From Yuukianura sp. NJ FZ-2021 (Eukaryota): 64,000 nt of DNA. The stretch is taken from contig CM102289.1 of the NCBI GenBank assembly GCA_046563655.1, positions 2,232,001-2,296,000 on the forward strand, given 5' to 3'. The position numbers were made by a program, and so were the translations under genes. Below, one piece after another: positions 591 to 30,474 of the stretch. Numbering within the stretch: the first letter of the stretch is position 1; the number at the start of each line of letters is the position of its first letter. The notes beneath the pieces are model-generated. The model searched no databases. It was not told the origin of the DNA and worked only from the letters and a program-made list of their open reading frames with translations.

Positions 591-1251
591 TTTCAAAATT
601 TTCTATTGTTCTTTCATGAAATTTTTTTATTCCCCGCTGTGTGATTTCATTTCGTACTAATAAAAGCAGAGATGGTCTCTGTTCTGCCAGGGTGCTTTAA
701 AAGTAGGTCAAACGCTGAAAAAGTGGATATGGGCCAGGGGTGAACTATGTTTCTAGATTATGGATAACCTATTTAATACGTTTTCGCAGAATTATTGATT
801 TCTCCAGAGTGTAATAAATATATTCAAAACGACACAATGGCTCTCGGTCATTACAAAATTGAAACAGGTACATCTAAAAGCCAAGAGATTGAGGGCATGC
901 TTTGTTACTTTCACTTTTATTCAATGTTGACGGAATATCAACTTGTGACAACAAAAAAAGCTTCAGTTTTTAACAAAATCAAGGTTCTTTGGCAACGAAA
1001 AGTTCATATTTTCGTTAACATGTTGGGTGTACTACCTCGCTTGTTGCAAAAAAAAAACGAAAAAAAAAATTAGAGACCAATCCAAAAAATTGGTACCAAT
1101 TCGTATGCAAAATTTAAGAAAAAATGGCTGTATTGCTTTGACTACGGTGCCCTGAAATGAAAATGTGAAACTTTTTGAAAAATCAAAAAATACGAGGTAT
1201 TACCGAACCTGTTAAAGAAAAGTAATCAATCAGCAAACTTTTTCAACGAAA

Positions 1252-2350
1252 GGCTACCGTAGTTCGCTTATGGGACAGAGCAGACCCGTACGATTTGGCT
1301 GAAAATTTAACCACGTGTTCTCGACACCTACAGGAACAACTTTTGTACAGGGTCCAGATGGGGCATCAAACGGTTTGACCCCCAGGGGTCACCAAAGGTC
1401 ACGAGGTCATCCTATGACAACCCCCCATAATTAAGGTGTCGTTGGAAAGGTCATGACCTTGTGGTTCAGAAAATGTATAGGTATCAATACTTTGGTGCAG
1501 GCGTTTAGCCGTAAGGGGTCACTGAAGGTCGACCATGAAAAAAGTTGCAAAGTACCAAAAAGTGAAATCGTTTCATGACAACCGACAAAATGACTTATAC
1601 AAAAGTTGTTCCACTCAAAAAAATAAGCAACTTTTCCCTCTTGCATTTTTTTCTACGGCGAACAGCTGATGAAATACCGACCCAGGCCAAAACTGCTAAA
1701 AGTAGATTTCAGCTAGGACTTTCGCGACAGTAAAAAGGAATCTGATTGGTTTTTTATATTTTGGACGTAAACGTCAGGATATTGTTTTAAAAAGTTAGTT
1801 TCTGCAACCATTTCCATGTTCTGGGGGAGTCTAGAGGCGTAGAACCGTCGTTCTTGTCCAATTTCCTTTTGCCGTCGCGAAAGTCCTATCTGAAATCTAC
1901 TTTTAGCAGTTTTGGCCTGGGTCGGTATTTCATCAGCTGTTCGCCGTAGAAAAAAATGCAAGAGGGAAAAGTTGCTTATTTTTTTGAGTGGAACAACTTT
2001 TGTATAAGTCATTTTGTCGGTTGTCATGAAACGATTTCACTTTTTGGTACTTTGCAACTTTTTTCATGGTCGACCTTCAGTGACCCCTTACGGCTAAACG
2101 CCTGCACCAAAGTATTGATACCTATACATTTTCTGAACCACAAGGTCATGACCTTTCCAACGACACCTTAATTATGGGGGGTTGTCATAGGATGACCTCG
2201 TGACCTTTGGTGACCCCTGGGGGTCAAACCGTTTGATGCCCCATCTAGACCCTGTACAAAAGTTGTTCCTGTAGGTGTCGAGAACACGTGGTTAAATTTT
2301 CAGCCAAATCGTACGGGTCTGCTCTGTCCCATAAGCGAACTACGGTAGCC
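1252..2350. mobile_element. Non-autonomous foldback DNA element with ~490 bp inverted arms and ~120 bp spacer; probably Spy-type
   Basis: 1252-~1740 is the near-perfect reverse complement of ~1862-2350. Termini GGCTACCGTAG...CTACGGTAGCC. Flanks are AAA|...|TTT with no target-site duplication (TSD), the reported Spy insertion signature. Confidence 0.85.
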
Positions 2351-2406
2351 TTTAGGTGTAAAAAGCAACGTTTAAAAATAAAAATTTGTAGTTCAAAGTC
2401 GAAAAT

Positions 2407-4663
2407 TTAATGATCGCAATTTGAGCGTAAACAGGAATTGAACGAGTAAAGCGAAGATGCTTGTGCTGTTGATTCTGGTGGTGGACGCTTGTACTTGATT
2501 TCTGACCGACCTTTCGGTCCAATGTCAATTCGAGTAAAGTGGGAGAAGTAGATTCCTTCAAATGGGAACAGAAACTTACTAATTTTTGTGGCTTTTGTAC
2601 AGTCATTGTCAATATTTTCATGTTCAGTGACTAAAGTACCCCTCCAGCCACACTTCAAAGCCAGTACAAACGTCATCCGTCTACAGACATTGTTTTCGGT
2701 AAAGCTAAGTGTTTCCAGTGTATCATCGTATTCGATAGTCTCTAAAGCATCGAGGTTATCCTCAGAGTAGACATATGATTTGTAATGGCCCGCTTCTCGC
2801 TCGCGCATGCGTGGACTGAATCTGGCAATTCCTTGCCTGACTACTGGTTCTGGAACGGAATCAACACTTAAAAGTTCACGAAACTCCCAACATCCAGCAA
2901 GATTTCGGAATACTACGGCTGGAACGTACTTTCCATTTCGCATTGCCTGAAGATCGGAATGAAAGTTTTGAAGAATTGCGGTGGCTTCTGGAGATGGAGA
3001 GTATTTTGAAGCAAATGCGTACTCTTCTTCTGGTCGTTCGAAAGTTTTCAGCAAATTGGCATGGAACTGGACCGATTCTGTGTAAATTGGCTGCGGAAAT
3101 TGTTGTCTTGGAAATCTTTGCCTAATTCCCATCTCGCGTTGGATATCTTTCAATTGATCGTCAACTGCTGGCCACGGCAGAGAACCTGAACGAAAAAATG
3201 AACTAATCAAAATTGTTCAATTTTTAATTTCTTAAAAAACTTTTTTTATCGTTTGATACCTGAGAAAACTGAAGCAGCAAATCGTGCCTGGAGTTCAATT
3301 GTTGTGAAATAGGGACCACGGTACATTCCAACAAACGCTGCATTTGGTAGTTTCGGATGTAAAATTCCGCACCCCAGAAGCAATGGCAGAAAAAGATCCT
3401 TCTCGTCAAAGTCAATCGCTTCCAGTGTTTCTTTAGTAAAAAATGGCAGTTGAGTAGAAAATCCCGTAGCAAAAATTACAACTGTATTCTCATGTGGAAT
3501 TTTAAGTTCATTTGATTTTCCATTTTCGTTTTTTTGTTCAATTCTAAGATTTAATCCATCGATTTCAATTAGTTCTCCTCTGATTACTTCAATGTCTCCG
3601 TTTCGAACCAATTCAGCATAAGTATCCGAAATACCGATGAATGACGTTTCTTCATCTTTGACTTCCAGTACTGGTGAAATCCGACTCTGACTGCCACAAA
3701 ATCTTTTTATTTGAGCATTTCGTTGTAAATTTATTTCAGTTGTGGTAAGAATCGGTTTTGGCTCAACATTGTCAATGTCAACTTTTGTCGCAGATGAATC
3801 TTTCTTATGAAACTTTGCCATCAGTGCAAGATCAATCGGAACGAAAGCTGGACAGACACTGGACGGATCTTCTGGAATCAAAGAAGGGAAAATCCAAAAT
3901 GCTTTCTTCGTGACATGAATTACGCGACGTGGACTATGACGATAAAGTTGTCCTGCCAACTCAATTCCACTGAGGGACCCCCCAACAATGACGACCGATT
4001 TCCTTGTAAGGTCGAGGAGCCCTTGACTTAACAAAATTTCGGCTTGAGAGTAGTGGTACACTGGACATGCGTTGGACGAAACTCCTGGAATCGATGGGAT
4101 GAAGGGTTTGCTGAAAAATCCAGAAGCGATTACTAAAAAGTCAAAGTATTCTTCTCCAGACCGAGGCGGCAGAGCATGATTGATGCTTCCGCCCTGCGCA
4201 GTTTCATATTCGACGTGCCATTGACCTCTCTCCGAGTCAAAATTCACATGAGTAACTTTCGTATTGGTTCTAATGCAGTTTGGTTCACTTAGAAAGTGTT
4301 TGGCATAGCCCTGGAGATACTGTCCAACTTCAGTTGCCGTAGGAAACAGCCGTACTGGAGGTTTGGATGAATCCGTTTCCCATGGATAGTCAGAAAAAGT
4401 ACAGACGTACTTGGACACATTAGTTGTAAGCGTTTGGGGAACGTGTTTGCTACTTTTGGACCAAATTCCACCGATTTCAAACGATGTTTCAAAGACTATC
4501 GGAAGAAGACCTGCTTGTTTGGCTGCTTTAGCGGAAAGTAATCCCGATACTCCAGCCCCTTTAATTAGCAAACATAAATTTTTTGAAAAGAATCAATTTT
4601 ACAACAATTAATTTTGACTTTGCCAATAATTGACTCACCAATGACTGCCACGGATTTTGCCAT
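2407..4663 (-). CDS. Flavin-containing monooxygenase (class B) fused to a C-terminal DUF6314-like domain; exons 4663-4639, 4558-3260, 3185-2407; 700 aa
   Basis: Spliced N-terminus MAKSVAVIGAGVSG (FAD GxGxxG), IGGIW, LVIASGFF, VGGSLSG (NADPH), FATGF, FVGMYRGPYFTTIELQAR. Exon lengths sum to 2103 nt (701 codons). Confidence 0.9.
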
Positions 4664-5326: not shown

Positions 5327-7771
5327 TCATTTGATTGACAGAAGTAGTGAAATTGTAAAGTCAATCATTTTGTAGTTAACAGTGGATACCATTTCACGGT
5401 CAACGCGATTCAACGGTCCAACTTTAACGAAGCATGGCAGCAAAGCCTTGACTCTTCTGCCGTCGACTTTAGTGTGCCTTCGATGCGTTTTCAAAATAAA
5501 AATATAGTCTGATGAAGATGTATAAACTTGAGCAGCTTGTAATACAAATATGTGCAGAACCCCATGCGAAAGCACTGCAGCAAACAGAAGAGCTGGTAGT
5601 AGAATTGACATGCCAGTGTTCAAAGCAACAGCATAAAAAATTACGCCGAGTGTACTGCCCGTGACAACACCAGAAGCGAAACTAAACACTACAAAGTCGT
5701 TAAAAATTTGAAGCAAAATGTACAAGTTGGAGTAGATTTGAGTGAGGTAGTTTGTACGCAATGCCAAACAATTCTGTTGTAGTTTTTCTTTGAGATGTTC
5801 TGCGGAGAACCAGAACAGCAAAGCATCGTTTAAAAAAATGACGAGCATTATTTGTGTAGAAAATTTGAGTGCACAACAAAATGTTATAAAGATCAAAGAC
5901 ATTGCTACAAAAATTGTGAGGCATCTAGCAGTTCCTTCGGTCCAATTGGTATCGACAGTCAAGCTGGTAATTGTCCCGAAATCAAGACCAACGTCACTTT
6001 TAAGTACAATTTCTAGCGTATACTGGATAATTCGTTCAGCGTCATCGAAGAACACAACGAGCATCATTGTTGTGAAAATTGGGCAACCAAAATACAATCC
6101 AAAGTGAAACATTTTCATGATACGGTAGCTGAAGGCTGATTCTGGTACACGCAGGTACCCTCCTAAAAACAATAAGTGTTAGCGTTTTTGCGCCTTTGAT
6201 TCATAATACAATATAATAAAGTATGCAGCCGTAGCAGGTCATAAGAGCTAAACCAAAAAGAGCTAATCCAATAAGAGCTACTCAATAAGAGCTAAAAAAA
6301 ATAAGAGCTACTCCAATAAGGGCTACTTCAATAAGAGCTACTTTCAATAAGAGCTACTTTCAATAAGAGCTAAAAAAATAAGAGCTAATTCAATAAGAGC
6401 TACTCCAATAAGAGCTACTTTTAATAAGAGCTAAGAAAAATAAGAGCTACTTTCAGAAAGGGCTCATTTCAAAAACACATTATCAAAAACGGAAATTTTT
6501 CAAGAAAATTGAAACCAGCCAAACTTTTTGGAAAACTTGAATGCGTTTAATTAATTGCTGGCAGGTACCCCAATCCAAAATGCGCGTAAAAAGTACAGGG
6601 ATTTTGAAAAGCGGCTGTCCAAAATCGTGGAAGAATACGACCACAACTCCGTTTCGGACTTTTTGCTGGGGATTTCGCTTAACGTTAAATTCCAGATTTA
6701 AAACTTTTAGATTAGAGGGTAACTTAAAATTTCATACAAACTCGGACAAAAATATTAAACTTAAAATGTTAGGTTAAAAACTTAGGTTAAAACACTGCTA
6801 AAAGATTCTTGTTTTGTTATTTCTACTTTTGTTAGTACATCAATTGAAAGTAGGTTAACTATGCCATATTTGTTTTAGTTACATAACAATTTAGAGGTCA
6901 AGTTGCATCCTTGCATCGTTAAATGGCGAATTAAATTCTTTTTCAGAAATTTTGATCAAGATGTGCTTCGGCTATTAAACGCATTCAAGTTTTCCAAGAA
7001 GTTTTGCTGGTTTCAATTTTCTTGAATCGTTTTTAATAATGTGTTTTTGAAATGAGCCCTTTCTGAAAGTAGCTCTTATTTTTTTTAGCTCTTATTAAAA
7101 GTAGCTCTTACTGGATTAGCTCTTTTTGGTTTAGCTCTTATGACGTGGAACCGTATGCAGCTACTAATATACCACATGTTCGTATATAAAGATAAATAGT
7201 ATATATTCATGTCTATAGCAACATACTATTCATTAGTTACCTAGTTTCTCGCCAGTTACAAACGACATGGCAGTATTTAGTAATTGTAGTAAATAGTATT
7301 TCCCGAATATGCAGGAACTGATGTCCAATGTCATACTATGGATGAGAATGCAACTGCAGCCAAATAGCAGAACCGAAAAGATAGTGCTTGATATTGAGAA
7401 AATACTGTTCAGATATGCCAAGGTCATACACATTATGATAGTCAGAACGTCAACCCCTAGCAGACCTGCGGTGACTATACTCCGGAATTTTGATGTTGAC
7501 AAAACAAACCGATTTTGCAAACGATTCCAACCGACAGGAATTTGATACAAGTTGTAAGCATTATTGATTGATGTCAGTAGCAGCCCAACGGCTGGGTTTT
7601 CATTAGGTTCTACGTTTTGTTCCAATTAAAAAAAAGTTTTGATGAAATTTACGAAAAATTTAAATTAGAAATTCTAGAAGTGCTGAACTTACCCTCTTTT
7701 CTGGAGAAGTTTTGTTTCTCAAATAAACGGCAACAAATGTAATGCCAAAACAGGTAAATTTTATGCAGCAT
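5327..7771 (-). CDS. Divergent gustatory-receptor-like 7TM chemoreceptor, paralogue A; exons 7771-7693, 7609-7241, 6162-5327; 427 aa
   Basis: Multiple hydrophobic helices. C-terminus KVGPLNRVDREMVSTVNYKMIDFTISLLL resembles the TM7 region of arthropod GR/OR proteins. Phase-1 junctions keep frame (1284 nt). Confidence 0.75.
6229..7152. mobile_element. 924 bp non-autonomous DNA element in the GR-A intron; asymmetric ends and subterminal inverted arrays of AAGAGCTA
   Basis: 8 bp direct repeat GTATGCAG at 6221-6228 and 7153-7160. Ends CCGTAGCAGGTC and GACGTGGAACC. Inverted arms at about 6237-6552 and 6974-7145. Confidence 0.85.
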
Positions 7772-8477
7772 TTTACGTTTAAATTCTATTTCAGTTAGAA
7801 GATATTTTCGGCGGTGACTAAAACGAAGAAGAACTGGTATTGAATTAAGCTCGATTTCTAAAAAAAACCTTTCTGTCTACTTTGAGCTGAACAATCGTTA
7901 ATGAATAACCGAGATCATTAAAATAGGCGAAGAGGTTTGAAAGCATAAATTCTTTAGCAGCGTTTGCGAAGAAAGGCGTTGTTTTTCTAAACTTGTAGAA
8001 ATAGGCGTTACTAATGAACCAAAAGATAACAACGAAGCAAAAGTGTGCATTTTGTTGGTTGCCATGTGAGAGTTGGTTTGAGCATTTTTACTTTTTAATG
8101 AAGGTTTTTACTTCTCTATGGCAGAATTATGCATTTCAAAACATGAACGTCCACTAAATTCCTTGGAAAAGTTTGAAAAAATAAGGTTACGTGTTTTTAA
8201 AATATTTCTATTTGTCTAGATCCATAGCTAAATAAAATTGACTCTCTTTTGTTTGAATTAAGTTACATTTGCCTTATTTTTTTACCAATTTATTCTTGTG
8301 TTTTACGTAGTTACACAGGGAGTGCATACATCAAGGATATTACACGTATGATACATATTTCTTGCACCATTACACGTGTATTACATACATAAGGTATATG
8401 AAACATATGGCATATATTTCACGTTCATTATACAAGAATCTTGGCTGGCCTTCGGCCAGCCAAAGATTCTTGACTAT

Positions 8478-9077
8478 CACTTGACTATCATCTGCGCAGT
8501 ATCTGCACACTATCTGCGCAGTATCTACGCAGTATCTGCGCAGTATCTGCGCACTTTCTGCGCACTTTCTGCGCAGTATCTGCGCAGTATCTACGCACTA
8601 TCTAAGCACTTTTTGCGCACTTTCTGCGCAGTATCTGCGCACTTTCTGCGCAGTAGCTGCGCACTTTCTGCGCAGTATCTACGCAGTATCTGCGCAGTAG
8701 CTGCGCACTTTCTGCGCAGTAGCTGCGCACTTTCTGCGCAGTAGCTGCGCACTTTCTGCGCACTTTCTGCGCAGTATCTGCGCACTTTCTACGCAGTATC
8801 TGCGCACTTTCTGCGCAGTATCTACGCACTATCTCAGCACTTTTTGCGCACTTTCTGCGCAGTAGCTTCGCACTTTCTGCGCAGTAGCTGCGCACTTTCT
8901 GCGCAGTATCTACGCAGTATCTGCGCAGTAGCTGCGCACTTTCTGCGCAGTAGCTGCGCACTTTCTGCGCACTTTCTGCGCAGTATCTACGCACTATCTC
9001 AGCACTTTTTGCGCACTTTCTGCGCAGTATCTGCGCACTTTCTGCGCAGAATCTGCGCACTTTCTGCGCAGTATCTG
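8478..9077. repeat. Minisatellite of 11 bp units (CTGCGCAGTAT / CTGCGCACTTT / CTGCGCAGTAG variants)
   Basis: Directly visible tandem array of about 600 bp. Preceded by the hairpin GAATCTTGGCTGGCCTTCGGCCAGCCAAAGATTC at about 8436-8469. Confidence 0.95.
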
Positions 9078-9492
9078 AACTATCTTTGAAATTTTTTCAA
9101 AATTTCAGAAAGAAATTAGAAATCTTTGAAAATTTATAACTTGAGAAGGGCCGAAAACGAACAAAAAAAAAGTTTCGACAGTCGAATTCTTTTAAAAAAA
9201 AAGAAATAAGAATTTTGAGAGGAAAATTTTTTTTTATAAATATTTTGCTCCATCGTTTTCCCCCCGCCCCCATTGTTTACCCATTTTTAAACTTGTTTTC
9301 TTGGAAACTGATTTGAGGGTGTACTCTTTTAGCTGGACCTCACTGTATAAAATTAGTAAATTGTCATGCGCAAAGAGGGTGGATAGAAATCCGAGGAATC
9401 CGATATCCGGCTTTTAGCCAGACCCTGAGAAAGAGGACAGAAACACACGCAGACGGGTCTCTCCTTATAAAAGAGATGTGTATTACATACAT

Positions 9493-10003
9493 GGTTGAAG
9501 TAAGATATCGTTCGCCGCCTATCCCCACCCGTTCAAATTTTCGCGTTGCCTCCATTGTACCCACCCATTGTCCCCACCGGATGGATACGTTTGTATCCAC
9601 CACAACCAAAAGTAGTACGTCCACCTAGCGGCAATACAGTAACCTCTGAATTCAAGCTGGCAACGTTTTTTCCTTTTTGATTTGGTCAATCCTGTTATAT
9701 TTTCCCGCGGCTTTAGGTTTGGTAAAGCACGCAATACTGATTACGTCTGTAGGTTTAACTTATTGAGTTACGCTGTGTTGATTATATGTGCCCTGGGTGG
9801 GTACAATGGAGCAATGCTACAGCGTTGCCAGCTCGAATTCGCTAGTTCCATTTCACCCGCTAGGGGGACTCGGCGGACGGCTGGTGGGTACACATTTGTC
9901 CCCACCAAGTGGGGACAAACGTATCCATCCGGTGGGTACAATGGAGGCAGCGCAAAAATTTGAACGGGTGGGGACAGGCGGCAAACGATATATTACTTCG
10001 ACC
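9493..10003. mobile_element. MITE with ~110 bp imperfect TIRs, Merlin-like
   Basis: Termini GGTTGAAGTAA...TTACTTCGACC. 8 bp direct repeat ACATACAT at 9485-9492 and 10004-10011. GG..CC ends with an 8 bp TSD match Merlin. Confidence 0.75.
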
Positions 10004-10204
10004 ACATACATCAAGTGTATTACACGTACGACATATATTGCATACATTATTACACGTGCATTACATATACCAAGTATATTACAAGTATGTCATATTTCAG
10101 GCATTATTATAATTATGTTTGCAGCAATATAATGCTTATGTTGGTTTACGCAATGAATACAAGCAATTTAACTTTTAAAAACCTCAGAGCTCTGTCACAA
10201 ATTT

Positions 10205-11781
10205 TCATTGGATTGAGAGAAGAAGAGTAATTGTAAACTCCATTATTTTGTAGTTGACGGTGAGTACCATTTGACGGTCAACGCGATTCAATGAGCCAAC
10301 TTTAACAAAGCATGGCAGCAAAGCCTTGACCCTCCTGCCGTTTGCCTTACTGTACCATCCATTTGTCTTCAAAATAAATTTATACTCTAACGATGACGTA
10401 TAGATTTGAGCAGCTTGTAACATAAGTATGTGCAGAATCCCATGCGCATGAATTGCAATAACTAAGGCTGCCGGTAACAGAATTGACATACCGGTATTTA
10501 AAGCAACGGCGTAAAAAATGACGCCAAGTGTACTGCACGTGACAACCACCGAAACGAAACTAAACTCTACAAAATCATTAAAAATCTGAATCAAAATGTA
10601 CATGTTGGAGTAGATTTGAGGCAGGTAGGTTGTACCCAGTCTCAGACAATTCTGTTCTAGTTTTTCCTTGAGATAATCTGGAGACAGCCAGAATAGCATA
10701 GCATCATTTAAAAAAATGACGAGAATTACTAGACTAGAAAAACTCAGTGCACAACAAAATGTTTGAAATATCATGGAGACTGCGAAAAAAATCGTAAGAC
10801 ATCTAGCAGCGCCTTCGGTCCAGTTTGTACCTACAGTGAAACCTATGATTTTCCCCAAATCAATACCAATGTCACTCTTGAGTAGAATTTGCAGCATATA
10901 CTGGATTAGTTGTTCAACGTCATGAAAGACCGCAACGAGCACGAGTGTTGTGAAGATGGGGCTTCCAATATATAATCCAAAATGAAACATTTTCATGATA
11001 CGCAAGCTGAACGCTGAATCTGGTACACTCAGGTAACCTCCTGGAAAGTTATTAAGCGTTTTGCATTAGGTTCCATATGATGTGGTCAGAAAGTGAAAAG
11101 ATCAAAACTGAAATGATCAGAAAAAACGGTCAGAAACAGAAGGACAGTAGCCACACCGAACCTGAAATCTTTTGAATTCTGAGGTTTTCACTTCTGATCA
11201 AATATTTCTGACCATGTCAAATGGTACTGTATAGGCCAGTTACCTAGTTTCTCGCCAGTTACAAAAGACATAGCTGTATTTAGTATTTGTAGCAAATAGT
11301 ATTTCCCTAATACTAAGGAACTCATGTCCAGTACCATACTATGGGTGATCACACAGCCGCCGCCAAATAGCAGTACGGTAAAGATAGTGTTTTATTTCAA
11401 AAATACTGTTCCCATATGCCAAGGTCATCCAAATTATGATAGTCAACGCGTCAACACCTAGCAGACATGCGGTGACTACAGTCCGGAATTTAGATGTGGA
11501 CAAAACAAACCGATTTTGCAAACGATTCCAACCGACGGGGAATTGATAAAAGTTGTAAGAATTATTGATTGATGTTAGTAGAAGCGCGACTGCTGGGTTT
11601 GTATTGGTTTCCTTCTTTTGTTCTATTTCAAAAATAAAACAAAATGTAATGAAATTTAAGAAAAATTTGAACTAGAAATAGAGGTACGGAACTTACTAAT
11701 TCTTTTTTTCCTGGAAAAGTTGTGCTTCGCAAATAGACGGAAGCAACTATGATTGCAAAAAGAGTAAACTCTATGAAACAT
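10205..11781 (-). pseudogene. GR-like paralogue B with a frameshift in exon 2; exons 11781-11697, 11622-11244, 11040-10205
   Basis: Exon 2 is 379 nt versus 381 nt in paralogue D. The frame slips near 11390 in a homopolymer tract (NSIFEI then out of frame). The rest is intact, so an assembly indel is possible. Confidence 0.65.
11069..11229. mobile_element. Diverged ~160 bp MITE in the GR-B intron; same family as 51825-51986 and 61206-61352
   Basis: GGTTCCATATGATGTGGTCAGAAAGTGAAAAGATCAAAA...TTCACTTCTGATCAAATATTTCTGACCAT aligns with the copy at 51825. Confidence 0.75.
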
Positions 11782-12961
11782 TTTACAGTCAAATTTCATT
11801 TCCTGCAGGAGATATTTTCGGTGGGTACTGAGCCGGGGACGAAGTGGTGTCGTACAAAGCGCGATTTCAAAAAAAAATTCTTTTTTAGACTTTCAATCCA
11901 TTTTGACTTGAAAAACTTTAAATGATTAACGATCCCATTAAAATAGGCAAAAGTTTTGCCCGACGACATAAATTTTGTTGAAGTGATTTTAATGAAAAGC
12001 ATTAAGTGCTTTGTCCTTTTTCAAAAATTCATTTGTGATATCCATTTTGCCTTTCAGAGTTGTAGAAAAAGCCAAAAGCATTAAGTATACTTTTTGTCTG
12101 CTGCTATGTGAGAGTGGTTTTGAGCATTTTTAAATCTTAAGTGGTTGCACTTATTTCCTATGCCAAAATTAATCGATTTCAAAAATTGAAGGCTCTAAAA
12201 AAAGGAAAAAGCTTGGAATTGGTTTTCTTCATCTGCGCAGAAGTGCTTGTGAAGTCAGTTCTCTTTGAATTTCATTTTGAAACTCCAATCAATGTGTTTA
12301 ACTTAACTTAAGCCGGATTCTTACAATTGTCTCACAATTGTTCATTGGCTCTTTTTGTACAGAATCGAAAAAACTGAAAGGATTTATGTCAGAATACATG
12401 AACGTATGTGGGGTATCTAATTGGCATTTTATATTATTAGTACTGTAGTAGCTTACAATTTACCATAGACGAGTTAATTATCTAGTAGCAGGTTACGATT
12501 TACTACAAAATATTTAATTACTCTAGTAAGTTATAATTTACTAAAAAAAATTTTCTACATATACAGGCTACAATTTACTAAAAAAATGAGTGTCATACGT
12601 TAATTAAAGCTTGTTATTTTGTAACTTCCAATGACATTCTAGTTACCTAGAGTTAAAAGAGAACCTACCAACCTTTGAAATGTTTTGCGTATAATTGATG
12701 TAGAAAGGTGGTTGTTAAAATTTAAGTTTTTCCATAAGTCAACAGAAACCAACCTAACACAAGAGAAAAAATGAGTGACAAAAATATAATGTCATTAACA
12801 AATAGTATTATTCCACAAAACTTTCTCCAAAAACATGTTCGAAGTTTTAATTGAGGAGGAGAGTAACATGTTTTAGGAATTCGTGGACGACAATTACGAT
12901 GATTTTGGACAAAGTTGTCTTTATAGCTAGAAATATATACTCATGTATTTAGCTTCAAACC

Positions 12962-14599
12962 ATGCAGAACACATTCATTGCTGAAGAATACCTGCTAGGT
13001 GGTTCTATTTCTCGGGACAATCGCTATTGCACAACTATTCATTCAGCATTTCGTAAACTTCAAGAAATAATGATTGATCGAACCAATTTGTGGGTTAGAT
13101 TAATGTATACTTGGTCAAGATTTATGCGCTACGTACCAGTATCATACCGTTTTAGACATGGACAGCCTGATATTATTTTTCACACTAAAAACAAGCCAGC
13201 GTACAATGTGTTCAGACTATTTTCTACGGTTGCTTTTGGGACACTTATGGTATTTTGGCACTACGAAACCGTTGTTGGTGCGGCGACAAAATTTGAAAAA
13301 GTAATTGCTGTTGGTCTAAACAGTATATTTAATATAGTGCACTTGGCACAATGGATTTTACTTATTCCAACCATACGACAACGTTGCGTCAACGTCACAA
13401 ACATTACTCTAGATTCCAAGTTTCATCTATCTAGAAACTTGCCACGCTCTTTTGAAATGTTATGTTTCCTATTTTGTTCGGCGTCAATAATATATCCGTT
13501 TATCGCACTTCCATTTGTATACGCTGCGTCATGGGCATTACCTGGGCTGTTCACCACAATTCACAATATACTGGCATTTACCGCTTCACAACTGAGCATC
13601 CCGCAGTCGACCGCGTACGTCTGGCTATTTACAATATTCAAATTTATTTCTTTCTCATGCATTGCAGTTGGCATTGGTCATGCGGGAGCCAATGGTGTTA
13701 CTATGTTCCACTGGATGTTTCTATATTTATTCACAACTACTCAACGACTAAAAGATCTCAGCTTCAACGGGTAGGTCGACTTAAAATTTGTCTTAGTTAT
13801 TACTTTCAGTTTTTTATATAAAAAAAACATTTTATCAAGCAAATTGTTTATTCTACACCAGATTGTCCAATAACTCCACGCTTTTAATTTTCTCAAATAA
13901 TTTGCAAATCTTACCCCGTGCTCTTCTATGGTTATGATTTGTATGTAATTTACTAGGAATTGGGGGGAAAATTGTTTGAAGGAAGATTATTGCAAGCCCC
14001 GAGTCATTGGACAACCTGTTGTAGGAAAAACAATTCGGTTGTCAATAAACCTTGATTTCTATGTTTTTTGGTTTAACTTACACTTATTTGTTAATTTTAT
14101 TCACAGTGATGACGTACGTCGGCTGAAGGAACGCAATTTCTTGGGACCTCAAATTCGTTCAGATTCATTGGAGTATCTAAAAGTTAAAGTAATTGGTGAA
14201 TCATATAATGAATCTTTTGGAGTTTTAATTACTGTACTCATCATTAACATTTTGGTGGGTATTGTCGTTTTTTCATTTTTCGCAATTCGTGCCAGTGGAG
14301 ACTTTCCTTTTGCGATTGTTTTTGTTATGATTAGTGCCAACTTATGTTGTATAGTCTGTACATCCCTCCTCTTGTCTGTTGCAACTGATCATAACATTTT
14401 GTCTAAAAGTTTAATTAAACTGGCTCTTCACGAATCAAGAAAATCCTACTCGAAATACGAATCAAAATTTTGGAAGAGCATGACACCATTACGGATCTCT
14501 ATTGCGGGTTTTTCAACCCTAGAAACAAAAGAATTCATTTTATTCATTTGGTCCCAAGTAGTCATTGCATCAATTGTGAATCTCCTCTTAGCATTCTAG
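12962..14599 (+). CDS. Distant GR-like 7TM chemoreceptor; exons 12962-13770 and 14107-14599; 433 aa (alternative start 13070)
   Basis: Phase-2 GT(13771)/AG(14106) junction is in frame. Hydrophobic helices. C-terminus KFWKSMTPLRISIAGF...VVIASIVNLLLAF. Confidence 0.75.
13853..14024. mobile_element. Small MITE in intron
   Basis: Inverted ends CTACACCAGATTGTCCAATAACTC and GAGTCATTGGACAACCTGTTGTAG. Related element at about 39176-39407. Confidence 0.65.
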
Positions 14600-15052
14600 A
14601 AGAATAACTCATTCAGCGTTAACTCAATGTCAAATTTAATAATTTACAAGTTAATAATAAGAACTAAAACAATTTTGTTACTTTTAAGTTAAATTTCTAG
14701 ATAAACTGTGCTGATCTGAAAATTAAAATGTTAATATTTTGCTTATTTGTGATTGCCATGAACCAATGGTAAAGACTTTGGTACACTATAAAGTGCAGTG
14801 GTTGAGCTTACGTAGTTACACATGCATTATGTTGAATCGCTATGTAGTAAAATAATTGCATGTTGCGCAAATTTTATATACAACGTGGGACACACGTAGC
14901 GCATATATCATGCATGTTACGTTACATTTATGACATATATTTGACGCATTAAAATATAACTACAACAATATAAAGCTTTATGCTGGTTTAGTCACATAAA
15001 TTACAAGCAAAGTTTAAGTAACTAATACCGTTTACTTTACTGCGACAAATTT

Positions 15053-16372
15053 TCATTTGATTGAAAGAAGAAGAGTAATTGTAAAGTCCATCATTTTGTA
15101 ATTGACGGTGGACACCATTTCACGATCAATGCGATTCCACGGTCCAACTTTGATGCAGCATGGCAGCAAAGCCTTGAGCTTTCTGGTGCCGGATTTAGTG
15201 TACCTTCTATTCGTTTTCAAAATATGAATATAGTGTAAGGAGGCTGTATAGACCTGTGCAGCTTGTAACACAAATATGTGCACAACCCCATGTGCAAGAA
15301 TTGCAGCAAACAGAAGAGCCGGTAGCAGAAGCGACATACCAGTATTTAAAGCAACAGCATAGAAAATCACGCCTAGTGCGCTGCCGATGACAATCACAGA
15401 AGCGAAAATAGGCCATACAAAGTCATTAAAAATCTGAAGCAAAATGTAAATGTTGGAGTACAGTTCAGTTAGGTATTTTTTACCTAAACAACTCAAACAA
15501 TTCTGTCGTAGATTTTCCTTGAGGAGTTCTGGGGACAACCAGAACAGCATGGCATCATTTAGAAAAATGACAAGCAATATAAGCGTAGAAAATTTGAGAG
15601 CACAGCAAAATGTTTGAAACATCGTGAAGATTGCTACAAAAATTATAAGGCATCTAGCAGTGACTTCGGTCAAATTCGTATTGATGTTCAACCCTACAAT
15701 TGTAGCGAAATCAAGACCAAGGACCATTTTGAGTTCAGTTTCCATGGTATATCGGACTAGTTGTTCGGCGTCATCGAAGAATACAACGAGCATGATTGTT
15801 GTGAAAATTGGGCAACCAAAGTATGATCCAAAGTGAAACATTTTCATGATACGCAAGCTAAACGCTGAATCTGCTACACGCAGGTAACCTCCTACAAACA
15901 ACAATTAGGAACGTCTTTGCGTCATTGATCTATAATATAATATAGTTAATATTATTATACTATTTCATCCATACGCTAGTTACTTACCTAGTTTCTCACC
16001 AGTTACAAACGACATGGCAGAATTTAGTAATTGTAGTAAATAGTATTTCCCGTATATGCAGGAACTCATGCCCAGTACCATACCATGGATAAGTATGCAG
16101 CCGCAGCCAAAGAGCAGCACCGTGAAAATAGTGCTTGGTATGGCGAAAATACTGTTCAGATATGCCAAGCTCATGCACATTATGATAGTCAACACGTCAA
16201 TACATAACAGACCTGCGGTGACTATACTCCGGAATTTAGATGTTGACAAAAGAAACCGATTTTGCAAAGGATTCCAAACGACAGGGATTTGATAAAAGTT
16301 GTAAGAATTATTAATTGATGTTAGCAGAAGCCCAACTGCCGGGTTTGTATTAGTTTCTTTATGTTGTTCCAT
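15053..16372 (-). CDS. GR-like paralogue C; exons 16372-15988 and 15891-15053; 407 aa
   Basis: Intact ATG, phase-1 junction in frame (1224 nt), high similarity to paralogues A, B, D and E. Confidence 0.8.
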
Positions 16373-17008
16373 TTCAAAAGAGAAAAGGCGTTAATGAAAT
16401 TTACGACAAATTAGAAATACTACAAGCTCTGCACCTGCTAACTCCCTTCCTTCCTGAAGAAGTTGCGCCTACCAAATAGAGAGAATGCCGAAACAAGTAA
16501 ATGTTATGAAATGTATTACGATCAAATTTTGTTTCAGATGGAAGATATTTTAGGCGGGCGCTGAACGAGGAGGAAGTGATGTCGAACGAAGCTCGATTTT
16601 GAAAAACTCTTTCGGGCTTTCAACCCATCTTTGCCTAGAAAAATTGCGAATAATTAACCGAGGTCATTAGATCCGGCACAAAAGTTTTGATAGCATAAAT
16701 TTTGTAGAGGCGATTGTAAAAGAAAGGCGTTTCTTTTTTCTAAAGTCGTAGAAAAAGGCGTTACTAATGAACCAAAAGTAAATGTTTATTTGTTTGTCGT
16801 CTGTCTGTGTGTGTGTCTGTTGTTAGAGTTGTTTTGAGCATTTTTAATTTACACCAGTTTCGCTTTCGTATGCCAAAATTATTGAATTTCATAAAACGGA
16901 GGCTCTAAATTCTCCTTTTGAAAAAAATTAAGAAAATAAGGCAACAAAGCTGTTTTAGCTTGTATTGCGCGGCATGGCGGCATGTAAATCATGCATATAC
17001 ACTTAAAA

Positions 17009-17101
17009 CCCAGCTTTGAGTGGGTTTTAAGTGGGTTGACCCAGCTTTGAGTGGGTTTTAAGTGGGTTGACCCAGCTTTGAGTGGGTTTTAAGTGGGTTG
17101 A
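17009..17101. repeat. Three perfect tandem copies of a 31 bp unit, CCCAGCTTTGAGTGGGTTTTAAGTGGGTTGA
   Basis: Copies start at 17009, 17040 and 17071. The upstream CACTTAAAACCCA is the inverted complement of part of the unit. Confidence 0.95.
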
Positions 17102-17137
17102 AGTAACTAATACCGTTTACTTTACTGCGACAAATTT

Positions 17138-18644
17138 TCATTTGATTGATAGAAGAAGAGTAATTGTAAAGTCCACCATTTTGTAGTTGACGGTAGACAC
17201 CATGTGACGGTCAACGCGATACAACGGGCCAATTTTAACAAAGCATGGCAGCAAAGCCTTGACCCTCCTGCTGTTCTCTTTACCGTGCCTACCATTTGTT
17301 CTCAAAATAAAAATGTAGCCTTTTGAAGACGTAAAGACTTGAGCCGCTTTTAACACAAATATGTTCAAACCCCCATGTGCAAGAATTGCAGTAAGCATGA
17401 GTGCCGGTAGCAGAATCGACAAACCAGTACTTAAAGCAACAGCATACAAAATGACACCAAGTGTACTGCTCATGACAACTGCAGTAGCAAAAATAAGCAT
17501 TATATAGTCACTAAAAAGGTGAAACAAAATATATACGTTGGAATAGACTTGAATGAAATTGGTTGTTTCCAAGCCCGAACAATTCTGTTGTAGGTTTTCC
17601 CTGAGACGTTTTGGAGACAACCAGAAAAGCATAGCTTCTTTTAAAAAAATGTCGAGGATTACTTCTGTAGAAAACTTGAGGGCAACACAAAAGGTTTGAA
17701 ACAACATGCAGATTGATGCAAAAATCATAAGGCATCTAGCAGTGCCTCCGGTCCAATTGCTATCGACGATCAAACCGGCAGTTGTATCGAAATCCGGACC
17801 AACGAAACTTTCCAGTACAATTTCCAGTGTATGTTGAATAAGTCGTTCAGCGTCATTGAAAAACACCACGATCATGATTCCTGTGAAAATTGGGCCACAA
17901 AAATGGAATCCAAAATGAAACATTTTCATGAAACCCAAGCTGAACGCTGACTCTGGTACACGCATGTAACCTACACAAAAAATATAAAACGTTTTTGCAT
18001 CATTGATTCATATTATAATATAAGAGTATGTATTGAATAATATACCGAATGTTCGTACATAAAGATAAATATACTATGCCAGTAGTTCTGTATATGCAAC
18101 TTACCTAGTGTGTCGCCAGTTACAAAAGACATAGCTGCATTTAATGTTTGTAGTAAATAGTTTTTTCCGAATATGCATGAACTCAAATCCAGCACTGTAC
18201 AATGGATGAGAATACAGCCGCAGCCGAATACCAGTACCGTAAATATAGTGCTTGAAACTGCGAAAATACTGTTCAGATATGCCATGCTCATACAAAATAT
18301 GATACTCAAAACGTCAAAACACAGCAGACTTGCTGTAACTATTCTCCGGAATTTAGACGTTGATATATCAAACCGATTTTGCAAGCCATTCCAGTAGACA
18401 GGGATTTGGTAAAAGTTGTAAGAGTTATTAACTGATTTTAGTAGAAACGCAACTGCTGAGTTCTTATTAGGTTGTTTCTTTTGTTCTGTTTCAAAAATAA
18501 AAAAAACAATGAAATTTTCAAAAAATTTGAATTGAAAATACTAGAAGTAATGAACTTACTAATTCTCTTTCTCCTGGAAAACCTGTGTTTTGCAAATACA
18601 TGGAAACAAATACGATGCCAAAAGGAGTAAAGTTTATGAAACAT
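17138..18644 (-). CDS. GR-like paralogue D; exons 18644-18560, 18485-18105, 17970-17138; 432 aa
   Basis: Canonical GTAAG/CAG junctions, all phase 1, total 1299 nt. A further in-frame ATG lies at 18668. Confidence 0.8.
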
Positions 18645-27747: not shown

Positions 27748-30474
27748 CTACGTTTTCTTTCCTCTGTTTCGTGGCTTCTTCTTAGTAGGTTTCTCCGTCT
27801 TCTTATCATTTTGTGCTGTATTTTCTGCGCTCACTGTGCCGTTTAAGTCATCGTTACCGTCGCCAAGGTTTTTGTCGTCACTGACATCACTCTTGTCCTT
27901 CGGTTCATTTGAAACTTCCGGGGATTGGCGATCGTCCTGAGTTCGGTTAAGTTCGTTGAGTGCGTCATGGTTTTGAGGTAATATTTTATTCGCTTCAGCG
28001 TTTTCTTCAACTTTCTCTTCTGGCGTTTCCTCTACTTCAGTTACTTTTTGCGTTTCCTCAGTTTCATTTGCTCCTGGGGTTTCTTCCGCTTCATTCACAT
28101 GTGGCATTTTCTCTACTTCTGGCGTTTCCTTAACTTCTTCTGCTTCTGCCGTTTCCTCAGTTTCTTTGATTTCTGGCGTTTCTTCCATCTCATTCACTGC
28201 TGGAGTAGCATTAACATCCTCTACTTCTATCGATTCCTCAGCTTCTACTTCTGTCGTTTCTTCAGCTTCTTTGATTTCCGGCGGTTCTTCCTCGTCATAC
28301 ACTTTTGGCGTTTCTGGCGTTTCCGCAGCTTCTCCTACTTCTGTCGTTTCCCCAATTTCCTTTGCTTGTGGCGTTTTCTCATCTTCCTTTACTTGTGGCG
28401 TTTCTTCCGTTTCATTCACTTCTGGCGTTTCCTCAGCTTGTACTTCTGGCGTTTCCTCAGCTTCTACTACTAGAGGAGTTTGCTCAATTTCCTTTGCTTC
28501 TGGCGTTTCCTCGGCTTCCTTTACTTCTGGCGTTTCTTCCACTTCATTCACTGCTGGAGTTGCCTTTACTTCCGCTACTTCTGTCGTTTCAGGTTCTTGT
28601 ACTTGTGGCGTTTCCTCCACTTCATTCACTTCTGGCGTTTCCTCAGCTTCTACTTCTGGCGTTTCCTCAGCTTCTACTACTAGTGGAGTTTGCTCGATTT
28701 CCTTTGCTTCTGGCGTTTCCTCGGCTTCTTTTGCGACTGGCGTTTCTTCAACTTCTTTTACTTCGGGAGTTGCTTGGACCTCGCTTACAACTTGAGCTGT
28801 CTTGGCCTCATTTTCGGGCGTTGTTTCGGTGTTGTCCGACATTTCAGAAACTTCGTGAGTCGGTTCAGCTTCCGATTCCTTCAACTCTTCTACCTCTGCG
28901 CAAGAATCCACATCTCCTCCTGCAGTTTCACTGCTCTGATTTGTTGCAGGAGCGTCATCCTCGTCGTTCGCTTTTTCCTCAACATCATCTTGCTTAGGTT
29001 CTGTTGAATCTTCACTAGTGTCATTCACTTCTTGTTTGGCATCACCTACTTCTACGCTCAGTAAACTTACTGCCAACGGTTGCGCAATGGCTTCATTGTC
29101 TCCGGAGGCAATCTCATTTTCAGCATTTTGTGAAGTGCATCCCTCGCTGGATACGACATTTCCCTCAGGCAGATCTCCATCTACTACGCCCTCTACTGGC
29201 GTTTCTGTTTCAAATCCTTTGGTTCCCACCAAAATTTTGAGTCGAGTGTCAACTGTGTCAGTGAAATAAGGTCCCTCCAAAGTGATCTAACAAAAATTTT
29301 CATAGATTAAAATTTTTGAAATTCAAAATTTTTTGGAATTCTAAATTTATAGCTTACCGCTAAATAGTAGTCAAGATCAATTATTCTGCAACCTCCCAAG
29401 CTAGTTGGAGGTACTCCGTCGGGAATCGCAAGTTCTGCGTCCATGTTTCGCGAATCGCTGGGCTCTATTCCATCTAAAGTAACCGTCTCAAGTACATTCG
29501 TTTCGATGCTCTTCAGAACTTGACTGGGAAGGTTCACAATGAATCCCACTTCCTTTAAAAAAATGAATTTTTTTTTTGAATTTCCAAAATTTTTGAAAAA
29601 ATTTCACAAGTTAAACAAAAAATGGATACCTGTACTAGGCTGACTTTGATTTGCTTTATAGATTTTTCACTTTCGTTTGAAACTGTTAGTGAAAACGGAA
29701 CAGCCTCTCCCACTGTATATCCAACCCGCGAAAGTTTCAATTCAACTCCAAAAGGTGAATCCCAAAACTGTCTTAATGCAACAAATTTAAAATCTCCCAT
29801 GCTACTTCTGTCTACTCGAACTTCTTGGTTGAATCGTTGCCCCCAGTCATTCAAATCCTCTCCTCCTTCAACTTTAAACGCAGTTTTAAATGTTTTCATC
29901 ATAGACCATGGGCGCTTGATTTCAATTTTCACAAAGTACTCCACTCCACCGTACAATCCAGAAAACGAACTCGGAATTTTTTTAGGAAGTGCTTGACTGA
30001 ACGGAATTGACCGGTCAGGTTCAACAAATTCCTCTGAAGAATTTTTGAAAAAAAAAATTTGTTTGCTTTTTGGTTGAAAAATTTCAAATTGACAAAATTG
30101 CAGAATCCGAGTTGTTTACCGGTGGTTATAAGACTTATTTGTTCATTGAAGTACGACTCGGTTTCGGAACGGTACAAAGATTTCCGGTACTTTGGTGTTG
30201 GATTGTCTGTCCATTGTGTACGACATCTTCCTACCCAGGTTAACTTGACGTCTGAAAAAATTTGAAAATTTAAGTAAAAATTTGAACTTAAAACTTACTT
30301 TTTGAACTTATAAAATGTTTTTAAGTGTAAAAGTCAAAATTTATGGCGTCATTCAATGGAAAACTCACTGGACACTTTTGTTGGCGTTTTGAAGTGAAAC
30401 AGAACCGAACCAGATACGGTTTCGCCAGGATGAAAACTCGGTTGATCGAAAAGTATTTCAACAGGAGCCGACAT
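27748..30474 (-). CDS. Alpha-arrestin (ARRDC-like) with long Glu/Thr/Pro repeat tail; exons 30474-30369, 30251-30120, 30033-29630, 29552-29358, 29286-27748; 791 aa
   Basis: FHPGETVSGSV, IPSSFSGLYGGVEYFVKIEIKRPW, GYTVGEAVPFSLTVSNES, IPDGVPPTSLGGCRIIDLDYYL. Exons sum to 2376 nt. Confidence 0.85.
28000..28790 (-). repeat. Coding tandem repeats (EETPEV-type units) with a higher-order ~210 bp duplication
   Basis: Recurrent TTCTGGCGTTTC. The block EIEQTPLVVEAEETPEV occurs twice, 210 bp apart. Confidence 0.9.

What the first reader, a model, noticed from the sequence alone, without database searches (positions are those of the whole stretch)
2407..4663. FMO fused to a DUF6314-like domain: second horizontal-transfer candidate
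Seen: a 700 aa, intron-poor FMO whose last ~190 aa (VFRNLAGCWEF...GIARF...GW...H...FLFPF...GPKGRSEIKYKR) extend beyond a normal animal FMO. The FxGxxxHxxxY/F fingerprint is degenerate (ACPVYHYSQA). Recalled: the FVGxYRxPY..xExQAR segment plus a C-terminal DUF6314 domain is an architecture I associate with fungal and some bacterial FMOs. Inference: acquired from a soil microbe, possibly for detoxification or secondary metabolism. Two candidate transfers within 25 kb is notable.
Basis: partly seen in the sequence, partly recalled or inferred. Interest (0 to 1): 0.7.

Follow-up and report, generated by a model that had tools for sequence, protein, structure and literature searches.

The report
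Fungus-derived, biotin-linked monooxygenase in arthropod
A springtail-like animal carries an intact gene, taken long ago from a fungus, for a flavin enzyme with a worn-down barrel domain; its bacterial relatives sit beside vitamin B7 (biotin) genes, which hints at an undescribed biotin-handling enzyme in an animal that has also borrowed the genes for making biotin.

Summary
The gene is real: three exons, 700 aa, single copy, among arthropod genes. Trees place it inside a fungal clade of FMO-DUF6314 fusions (98/97). They reject grouping with animal FMOs (p=0.007) or moss-like homologues (p=0.009). Its first intron sits at the same codon and phase as in 12 fungal-type loci, so the donor was probably a fungus.

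The tail is a decayed DUF6314: 31.5 bits on a custom profile (shuffles at most 10), predicted ten-strand barrel, conserved motifs partly lost. An intact free-standing DUF6314 gene lies on another contig.

New lead: bacterial family members cluster with biotin genes (bioY/bioB within 10 kb in 4 of 25 genomes, 0.24 expected; also birA, avidins, carboxylases, an avidin-FMO fusion). This host also carries bioA (two), bioD and bioB. Best guess: an NADPH/O2 monooxygenase acting on biotin or a vitamer. Substrate and expression are untested.

The scan earlier noted this fusion twice in peat moss, and the free barrel in this genome; a scan note supplied the biotin lead.

The parts
4639..4663 (-). Exon 1 (start codon, 8 codons and the first base of Gly9)
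4559..4638 (-). Intron 1, 80 nt, GT-AG, phase 1 inside the first Gly of the FAD motif; same position and phase as in 12 fungal-type loci
3260..4558 (-). Exon 2: most of the class B flavoprotein monooxygenase core
   Evidence: Pfam FMO-like 77.3 bits; 37% identity to Botryobasidium P0003
4542..4558 (-). FAD-binding GxGxxG (aa 9-14; first base in exon 1)
4419..4421 (-). Asn55, invariant in alignment A1; aligned by recall with the Asn that stabilises the flavin hydroperoxide in FMOs
   Evidence: N46 of P0001 invariant in 25 rows; the role is recalled knowledge
4041..4073 (-). Degenerate FMO fingerprint (aa 171-181); His177 kept, F, G and Y/F replaced
3966..3989 (-). NADPH-binding Rossmann motif, subfamily form GGSxS (aa 199-206)
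3282..3335 (-). Subfamily signature FVGMYRGPY...ELQAR (aa 417-434)
   Evidence: mostly invariant or nearly invariant columns in A1
3186..3259 (-). Intron 2, 74 nt, GT-AG, phase 1; not seen in the fungal-type or moss-like loci inspected, so probably gained in the animal
   Evidence: continuous ORFs across this point in L056, L059, L061, L062, L066, L072, L075
2407..3185 (-). Exon 3: end of the FMO (RxQFP), helical linker, barrel domain and stop codon
2440..2919 (-). Decayed DUF6314 homologue (about aa 531-690): predicted ten-stranded calycin-like barrel; about 15 aa hairpin deletion; CxxDxY and GPxKDY motifs partly lost
1239..2363 (.). Host non-autonomous foldback/MITE-like element with 503-nt inverted arms, 43 nt past the stop codon; dispersed on many contigs, so it anchors the gene in host DNA
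   Evidence: (135 matches)
5327..6178 (-). Last exon of the upstream neighbour, a repeated multi-pass membrane gene whose nearest Atlas clusters are mostly arthropod (linkage evidence, not part of the FMO)
   Evidence: score 0.97, but recognition value low

Best explanation
A single-copy, host-integrated gene acquired as genomic DNA from a Dikarya fungus, probably a basidiomycete. It encodes a class B flavoprotein monooxygenase of the FMO-DUF6314 family. Shown: gene structure, placement among fungal homologues, shared intron, intact FAD, NADPH and Asn motifs, decay of the fused barrel, an intact free barrel gene on contig C3, the biotin context of bacterial relatives, and bioA, bioD and bioB in the host. 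Inferred mechanism: NADPH reduces FAD, O2 forms the C4a-hydroperoxyflavin, and one oxygen goes to a soft nucleophile. The family's substrate is biotin or a close vitamer, most simply the thioether sulfur (biotin to biotin sulfoxide, for turnover or homeostasis). The DUF6314 barrel binds that ligand, because the same barrel with the same HxCxxDxY motif is the second domain of wHTH proteins set head-to-head with bio operons. In this animal the fused barrel has probably lost ligand binding and remains as a structural lid; the free barrel may supply binding in trans. My odds: fungal transfer about 0.88; biotin-linked role for the family about 0.7; role kept by this animal copy about 0.5.
For: Origin: best named hit basidiomycete; inside a clade holding the five named Dikarya rows in all six trees (96, 97, 97/97, 98/97, 98, 98); AU tests reject the host's own FMO p=0.005, the P0046 clade p=0.033, moss-like rows p=0.009, animal FMOs p=0.007; intron 1 in 11 of 35 census loci plus L059, in fungal-clade lineages only, absent from 12 moss-like and 6 diatom-like loci and from 5 other host FMO/BVMO genes; codon use host-like. 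Pairing: DUF6314 in 29 of 33 FMO-bearing bacterial genomes against 0 of 14 controls, within 3.5 kb of the FMO in 24 of 32. Biotin: FMO within 10 kb of bioB/bioY in 4 of 25 genomes (0.24 expected, p=1e-4; 3 of 24, p=0.002 without the locus that prompted the test); birA adjacent in L051 and L104, a biotin/lipoate-ligase-family gene beside L063, avidins in L090 and L096, biotin carboxylase in L102, biotin-dependent decarboxylase genes in L040, L043, L045, L046, L049, L103, avidin-FMO fusion P0124; wHTH-DUF6314 divergent from bioBFDA in 2 genomes, with the motif intact in 5 of 5. Host: bioB 397 bits, bioD 134 bits, two bioA above cut-off.
Against: No substrate, activity or expression data. Most bacterial loci have no biotin gene next to them: 9 of 33 genomes and 6 of 27 scanned metagenome loci do, and five of these loci are one alphaproteobacterial lineage. 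No fungal-type locus inspected has a biotin neighbour. The host's bioA/D/B lie megabases away or on another contig and look bacterial, so co-occurrence may only reflect a transfer-rich genome. Destroying biotin beside an uptake system is hard to rationalise, so the exact reaction is weakly supported. The animal protein is a long branch (0.9-1.3) with at most 38% identity to anything, and may have changed substrate. Barrel decay also occurs in other eukaryote members (12 of 68 lack HxCxxDxY, one through truncation), so it need not depend on a free partner. Most tree rows are unnamed; their fungal label is inferred, and animal and algal sampling is thin.
Confidence: 0.5

Rival explanations
1. 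Same fungal origin and biotin link, but the module salvages or repairs biotin rather than oxidising it. For example, the barrel's conserved Cys reduces biotin sulfoxide (or frees biotin from a conjugate) and the flavoprotein supplies NADPH electrons. The animal would use the free barrel as the catalytic half.
For: Neighbours are biotin importers and users (BioY/ECF, BirA, carboxylases). 18 of 33 FMO-bearing genomes show no bioB match, so the module is not tied to de novo synthesis. The Cys is invariant in alignments A2 and A4.
Against: The flavoprotein keeps oxygenase features (invariant Asn; nearest solved structures are mammalian-type FMOs, E 1e-69). The Cys motif is also kept in wHTH fusions, which fits binding better than catalysis.
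Confidence: 0.17
2. Fungal transfer repurposed as a broad-spectrum detoxifying N/S-oxygenase for dietary fungal or soil compounds. The barrel is a relic and the free DUF6314 gene is unrelated in function.
For: Long branch, loss of barrel motifs with an intact FMO core. The host holds several other FMO/BVMO-type genes. Class B FMOs commonly oxidise xenobiotics (established knowledge).
Against: Single copy with no expansion. Family context is biotin rather than xenobiotic catabolism. The host keeps an intact barrel with 20 of 20 conserved positions.
Confidence: 0.2
3. The enzyme supplies the C7 (pimelate) precursor by oxidative cleavage, filling the early gap in the host's borrowed biotin pathway.
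For: The host has bioA, bioD and bioB; I did not search it for known pimelate routes. One bacterial locus reads fabF-fabI-FMO-DUF6314 (L042), and L049 lies 4.3 kb from bioB.
Against: More than half of the FMO-bearing genomes show no bioB match, and all 9 bioD matches fall in bioB-bearing genomes, so the FMO often occurs where a precursor would be useless. MAG incompleteness weakens this. The type I BVMO fingerprint is absent.
Confidence: 0.08
4. Not a fungal transfer: fungal contamination in the assembly, an old eukaryotic gene lost in other animals, or a non-fungal donor.
For: The family is patchy across diatoms, mosses, fungi and unnamed eukaryotes. The unnamed P0046 clade could be animal, and its union with this gene is only weakly rejected (p=0.033).
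Against: 10.2-Mb contig with a host transposon 43 nt downstream and arthropod-type genes upstream; AT-rich introns and host-like codons; nesting within Dikarya and an intron seen only in fungal-clade loci.
Confidence: 0.05

Closest known systems
Uncharacterised fungal FMO-DUF6314 fusions (Botryobasidium botryosum BOTBODRAFT_59266; Jaapia argillacea JAAARDRAFT_373407)
   Same: Same domain order, colinear over about 660 aa (33% identity), same subfamily motifs, same clade; unnamed fungal-clade loci share intron 1.
   Different: Their barrels carry PF19834 and keep HxCxxDxY and GPxKxY; here the barrel is below cut-off with a deletion. An extra intron is present and the host is an animal.
'S-Ox-like 2' FMOs of Sphagnum fallax (PMC13557801; abstract, passages and section 8 read)
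   Same: Class B FMO with a C-terminal beta-barrel; the same top hit (Botryobasidium). No function is given in the parts read.
   Different: Rows I take to be these genes (42.4% to P0003, the paper's figure) are not sister to this gene (p=0.009), lack intron 1 and have intact barrels. The paper says they lack the fingerprint His, which this protein keeps.
Animal class B FMOs (mammalian FMO1-5 type; the host's own insect-type FMO at C3:13.29 Mb)
   Same: Same fold family; FAD motif, FATG motif and conserved Asn.
   Different: About 25-28% identity; separate clade; no barrel; different NADPH and fingerprint motifs.
Calycin-like ten-stranded barrels: CpeS bilin lyase, DUF3598, BFA1, nitrobindin, OlmO spirocyclase
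   Same: Best fold matches for both barrels (free: Z 12-13, rmsd 2.7-3.5 over about 130-145 aa; fused: CpeS Z 12.8, rmsd 3.1, 144 aa).
   Different: 5-13% identity; a shared fold gives no function. Avidin (eight strands, recalled) was not among the listed matches.
Horizontally acquired genes of springtails (PMC5490193, PMC4987106; passages read)
   Same: Fungal-origin enzymes linked to native genes are about 30% of reported transfers.
   Different: Those reports stress carbohydrate enzymes. No FMO-DUF6314 or biotin-linked oxygenase appeared in the passages or supplement search.

Membership tests
Class B flavoprotein monooxygenase (FMO-like) | Pfam PF00743 above cut-off | tested here: met
   77.3 bits against 22
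Class B flavoprotein monooxygenase (FMO-like) | FAD-binding GxGxxG near the N-terminus | tested here: met
   aa 9-14
Class B flavoprotein monooxygenase (FMO-like) | Second Rossmann motif GxGxxG/A for NADPH | tested here: inconclusive
   Variant GGSLSG, typical of the subfamily; canonical form in only 5 of 150 family rows; PMC13557801 reports GxxxSG/A in most plant families
Class B flavoprotein monooxygenase (FMO-like) | FMO fingerprint FxGxxxHxxxY/F | tested here: not met
   Only the His is kept; 66 of 150 family rows also deviate
Class B flavoprotein monooxygenase (FMO-like) | F/LATGY motif | tested here: met
   FATGF at aa 371
Class B flavoprotein monooxygenase (FMO-like) | NADPH- and O2-dependent oxygen transfer | not testable with these tools
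   needs an enzyme assay
DUF6314 (PF19834) | Score above the curated cut-off of 23.1 bits | tested here: not met
   no match; the C3 gene scores 115 bits
DUF6314 (PF19834) | Detectable homology and position after the FMO | tested here: met
   31.5 bits against at most 10.1 for 2000 shuffles; colinear in A3; hhalign to bacterial-type barrels weak, probability 14.7
DUF6314 (PF19834) | Ten-stranded barrel fold | tested here: met
   model pLDDT 77.4, ten strands, same top fold matches as the intact barrel; the model leans on the supplied alignment
DUF6314 (PF19834) | Conserved HxCxxDxY and GPxKxY motifs | tested here: not met
   11 of 20 conserved columns kept against 20 of 20 for the C3 gene (alignment-dependent)
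S-Ox-like 2 (Sphagnum) | Monophyly with the moss sequences | tested here: not met
   AU p=0.009; moss identity of the rows is inferred
Type I Baeyer-Villiger monooxygenase | Fingerprint FxGxxxHxxxW (recalled) | tested here: not met
   no Trp at that position; BVMO structures rank far below FMOs
Domesticated horizontal transfer | Best non-animal score minus best animal score at least 30 bits | tested here: met
   263 minus 104 = 159 among named rows; most rows are unnamed
Domesticated horizontal transfer | Nested in a donor clade, animal grouping rejected | tested here: met
Domesticated horizontal transfer | Physical linkage to host DNA | tested here: met
   assembly level only; no reads examined
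Domesticated horizontal transfer | Transcribed and spliced | not testable with these tools
   introns are inferred from the sequence only

The most novel reading that the evidence does not exclude
FMO plus DUF6314 is an undescribed two-part biotin enzyme: a flavoprotein working with a second, non-avidin kind of biotin-binding barrel. It occurs in bacteria as gene pairs or fusions and in fungi, diatoms and mosses as fusions. This arthropod took the fused gene from a fungus with an intron intact, split it into an enzyme with a vestigial barrel and a free working barrel, and uses it with bacterial bioA, bioD and bioB in a patchwork biotin pathway assembled from two kingdoms.
Probability: 0.3. Interest if true: 0.87.

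Novelty: new variant of a known kind. Interest (0 to 1): 0.64.

Why it matters
A fungal transfer in a springtail-like genome is ordinary. Three things here are not. First, genomic context ties a widespread FMO subfamily and a domain of unknown function to biotin. That gives a short, cheap substrate list, and may point to the kind of enzyme behind biotin sulfoxidation or salvage; my literature searches found no link of this family to biotin. Second, the same animal has borrowed the late biotin synthesis genes, so vitamin handling may have been rebuilt from several donors. Third, a donor intron kept across a fungus-to-animal transfer, and a fused domain decaying while an intact free copy persists, show how a foreign gene was remodelled after arrival.

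Tried and rejected
Pfam and NCBIfam on exon 3: no DUF6314 or named family. phmmer of exon 3 against 1.84 billion representatives: 0 hits. ESM Atlas on the tail: best 0.87, barrel families, a lead only. A hidden intron or frameshift restoring a canonical barrel: the other two frames are full of stops. Homologue search with the C3 barrel: 9 candidates, none passed. RNA runs: no RNA holder listed, so no reads were laid. Complex prediction of the FMO pieces with the free barrel: no answer. Cluster member names could not be obtained, so unnamed rows are labelled by tree position and flanks only. Barrel-only tree: neither barrel is placed; a common origin of the two host barrels (p=0.475) or of both with fungal barrels (p=0.414) is neither rejected nor shown. 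No FMO remnant within about 10 kb of the C3 barrel. The careful C20 mixture trees did not finish; quick versions are quoted. The sister link to Jaapia (99/93) dissolves under C20, so no donor species is claimed. The idea that the module replaces BioB: no genome with a bioD match lacked bioB. Conserved fungal biotin-transporter neighbour: the MFS genes are DHA1-type in three loci and anion:cation-symporter-type in one lineage, not informative. Avidin in the host: not found, search inconclusive. A first codon comparison used one out-of-frame host segment and was redone. Literature: DUF6314 0 papers, PF19834 0, Collembola + HGT + flavin-containing monooxygenase 0; listings showed no title or abstract start linking this family to biotin or to springtails. 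The F. candida supplement (file 3, cut when stored) labels genes by accession only, so an orthologue could be listed there unseen.

Full report
Gene. The finding is a minus-strand gene of three exons (4639-4663, 3260-4558, 2407-3185) with two short AT-rich GT-AG introns, giving 700 aa without an internal stop. It is single-copy by searches with both large exons. It lies on a 10.2-Mb contig of a 98.7-Mb genome. A host transposon with 503-nt inverted arms and 135 genome-wide matches starts 43 nt after the stop. Upstream is a repeated membrane-protein gene whose nearest Atlas clusters are mostly arthropod. 'Springtail-like' is my inference from gene content and agrees with earlier scan notes; I did not establish it. 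Synonymous codon use fits the host: score +0.071, against +0.014 to +0.074 for 7 host segments and -0.021 to -0.080 for 6 fungal-type genes.

FMO core. Exon 2 matches FMO-like at 77 bits. The FAD motif, FATGF, an invariant Asn and the subfamily signature are intact. The fingerprint keeps only its His, but 66 of 150 family rows also deviate, so this is no sign of inactivity. The nearest solved structures are ancestral mammalian FMOs.

The tail. Yet 36 of 84 homologues carry PF19834 at this position. A profile of their tails scores the window tail at 31.5 bits, against at most 10.1 for 2000 shuffles. The tail aligns end to end with an internal deletion of about 15 aa and is modelled as a ten-stranded barrel (pLDDT 77; the model depends on the alignment) matching CpeS, DUF3598 and OlmO. 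It keeps 11 of 20 conserved positions and loses the Asp and Tyr of HxCxxDxY and most of GPxKDY. Its branch is 2.4 against a median of 0.4. Mean identity to relatives is 0.23 in the barrel and 0.37 in the core; the Jaapia protein gives 0.33 and 0.37, but P0046 gives 0.22 and 0.37. Decay is therefore not unique: 12 of 68 long homologues lack the motif, one through truncation.

A second barrel. The genome's only PF19834 match is a separate two-exon gene of 176 aa on contig C3 (115 bits), between ionotropic-receptor-like genes and a UGGT-like gene. It keeps 20 of 20 conserved positions and folds confidently (pLDDT 90). Its first hairpin has the 15-residue length and PSG or MSG motif of the three fungal-clade barrels printed, while six bacterial ones have 9, 9, 9, 9, 11 and 14 residues and one has 18. 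Fission from the same import is possible, but the barrel tree neither shows nor rejects it.

Origin. The best named hit is Botryobasidium (263 bits) and the best named animal hit is a sea-urchin FMO (104 bits). No row named as an arthropod appeared, but most rows are unnamed. Six trees of 36-178 rows all place the gene in a clade holding the five named Dikarya rows (support 96-98); Rhizophagus falls elsewhere, among bacterial rows. After a scan note pointed to Sphagnum homologues (PMC13557801; abstract, passages and section 8 read) I added moss-like rows, which fall outside that clade. AU tests under LG+G4 reject union with the host's own FMO (p=0.005), the unnamed P0046 clade (0.033), moss-like rows (0.009) and animal FMOs (0.007). 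The branch is long, and the exact donor is unresolved.

Shared intron. Intron 1 splits the first Gly of the FAD motif in phase 1. The same intron occurs in 11 of 35 census loci (9 by script, L072 and L128 by eye) and in L059. These loci belong to four lineages of the fungal clade (L120 and L124 assigned by similarity, not by tree). It is absent from 12 moss-like, 6 diatom-like, 2 other and 4 fungal-clade loci, and from 5 other host FMO/BVMO genes. This favours transfer of fungal genomic DNA, although parallel intron gain cannot be excluded. Intron 2 was not seen in 7 homologous loci read through that point.

Function from context. In bacteria the FMO and the barrel travel together. DUF6314 occurs in 29 of 33 FMO-bearing genomes and 0 of 14 controls, within 3.5 kb in 24 of 32, fused in 7 of 34 loci. 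A scan note on wHTH-DUF6314 proteins beside bio operons prompted a test. The FMO lies within 10 kb of bioB or bioY in 4 of 25 genomes that have either, with 0.24 expected (p=1e-4); without the locus seen first it is 3 of 24 (p=0.002). For DUF6314 the count is 7 of 22. Other neighbours are birA (L051, L104), a biotin/lipoate-ligase-family gene (L063), avidins (L090, L096), biotin carboxylase (L102) and biotin-dependent decarboxylase genes (L040, L043, L045, L046, L049, L103), and P0124 is an avidin-FMO fusion. In all, 9 of 33 genomes and 6 of 27 scanned metagenome loci (of 30 listed as bacterial-type; 3 not scanned) show such a neighbour. The rest do not, one search covered selected neighbours only, and five loci are one lineage. 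wHTH-DUF6314 genes face bioBFDA operons in two genomes, and 5 of 5 keep HxCxxDxY, which suggests a ligand-binding motif. The module is not tied to synthesis: 18 of 33 genomes give no bioB match. Fungal-type loci show no biotin neighbours.

The host. It encodes bioB and bioD side by side about 2.7 Mb away on the same contig, and two bioA genes, all above NCBIfam cut-offs. Animals normally lack these (established knowledge). This fits a biotin role but does not prove one.

Verdict. Shown: a real, intact, fungus-derived FMO gene with a decayed DUF6314 barrel, an intact free barrel elsewhere, and a biotin-linked family. Inferred: activity on biotin or a vitamer, most simply S-oxygenation, with salvage, general detoxification and precursor supply as rivals. 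The architecture is in print only as a structural remark for Sphagnum. Searches for DUF6314 and PF19834 found no papers, and none of the biotin or springtail listings showed this link. The library lacks most subscription journals.

Noticed in passing
L002:1342-1962 (G000:C3, about 8.058 Mb): Intact free-standing two-exon DUF6314 gene of 176 aa whose N-terminus resembles the end of the linker in fungal fusions; between ionotropic-receptor-like genes and a UGGT-like gene.
   Followed up: yes
L139:553-2502 (G000:C7, about 4.935 Mb); L143 (C7, about 7.31 Mb); L144 (C2, about 1.86 Mb): Intronless-looking bioD and bioB convergent pair beside an ALAS-like gene, and two bioA genes above the NCBIfam cut-off: the late biotin pathway in an animal genome. 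The two bioA genes were not mentioned in the part of the earlier scan note shown.
   Followed up: partly
window 1239-2363: Foldback/MITE-like element with 503-nt arms at 98% complementarity, 43 nt after the FMO stop codon; it may have disrupted the 3' UTR, as no AATAAA lies in the gap.
   Followed up: partly
window 5327-18540: Tandem array of at least five related two-part multi-pass membrane genes (chemoreceptor-like by recall), no Pfam match.
   Followed up: partly
L021:295-3696 (left of the window): GH81 beta-1,3-glucanase with ricin-B-type lectin domains, another likely foreign gene within 10 kb of the window start.
   Followed up: partly
L005, L007, L014, L017: Four intron-poor Baeyer-Villiger-type monooxygenase genes in the host genome, candidates for further microbial transfers.
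   Followed up: no
P0124; L090:3873-6898; L096:4929-7671: Avidin fused to, or encoded beside, this FMO subfamily in bacterial-type contigs.
   Followed up: partly
L025:3949-4728; L147:4041-4820; L148:4031-4816; L152:795-1595; L153:3333-4124: wHTH-DUF6314 proteins of about 260 aa, divergent from bioBFDA in two genomes and from bioY in one.
   Followed up: yes
P0046, P0096, P0097, P0102, P0103: Unnamed eukaryote clade of FMO-DUF6314 fusions that has also lost the barrel motif; if animal, a parallel case of transfer and decay.
   Followed up: partly
window 6241-6475: Imperfect 15-16 nt tandem repeat just upstream of the neighbour gene's last exon.
   Followed up: no
window 27748-29286: Long Glu/Ala/Thr-rich repetitive open frame of 512 aa on the minus strand.
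   Followed up: no
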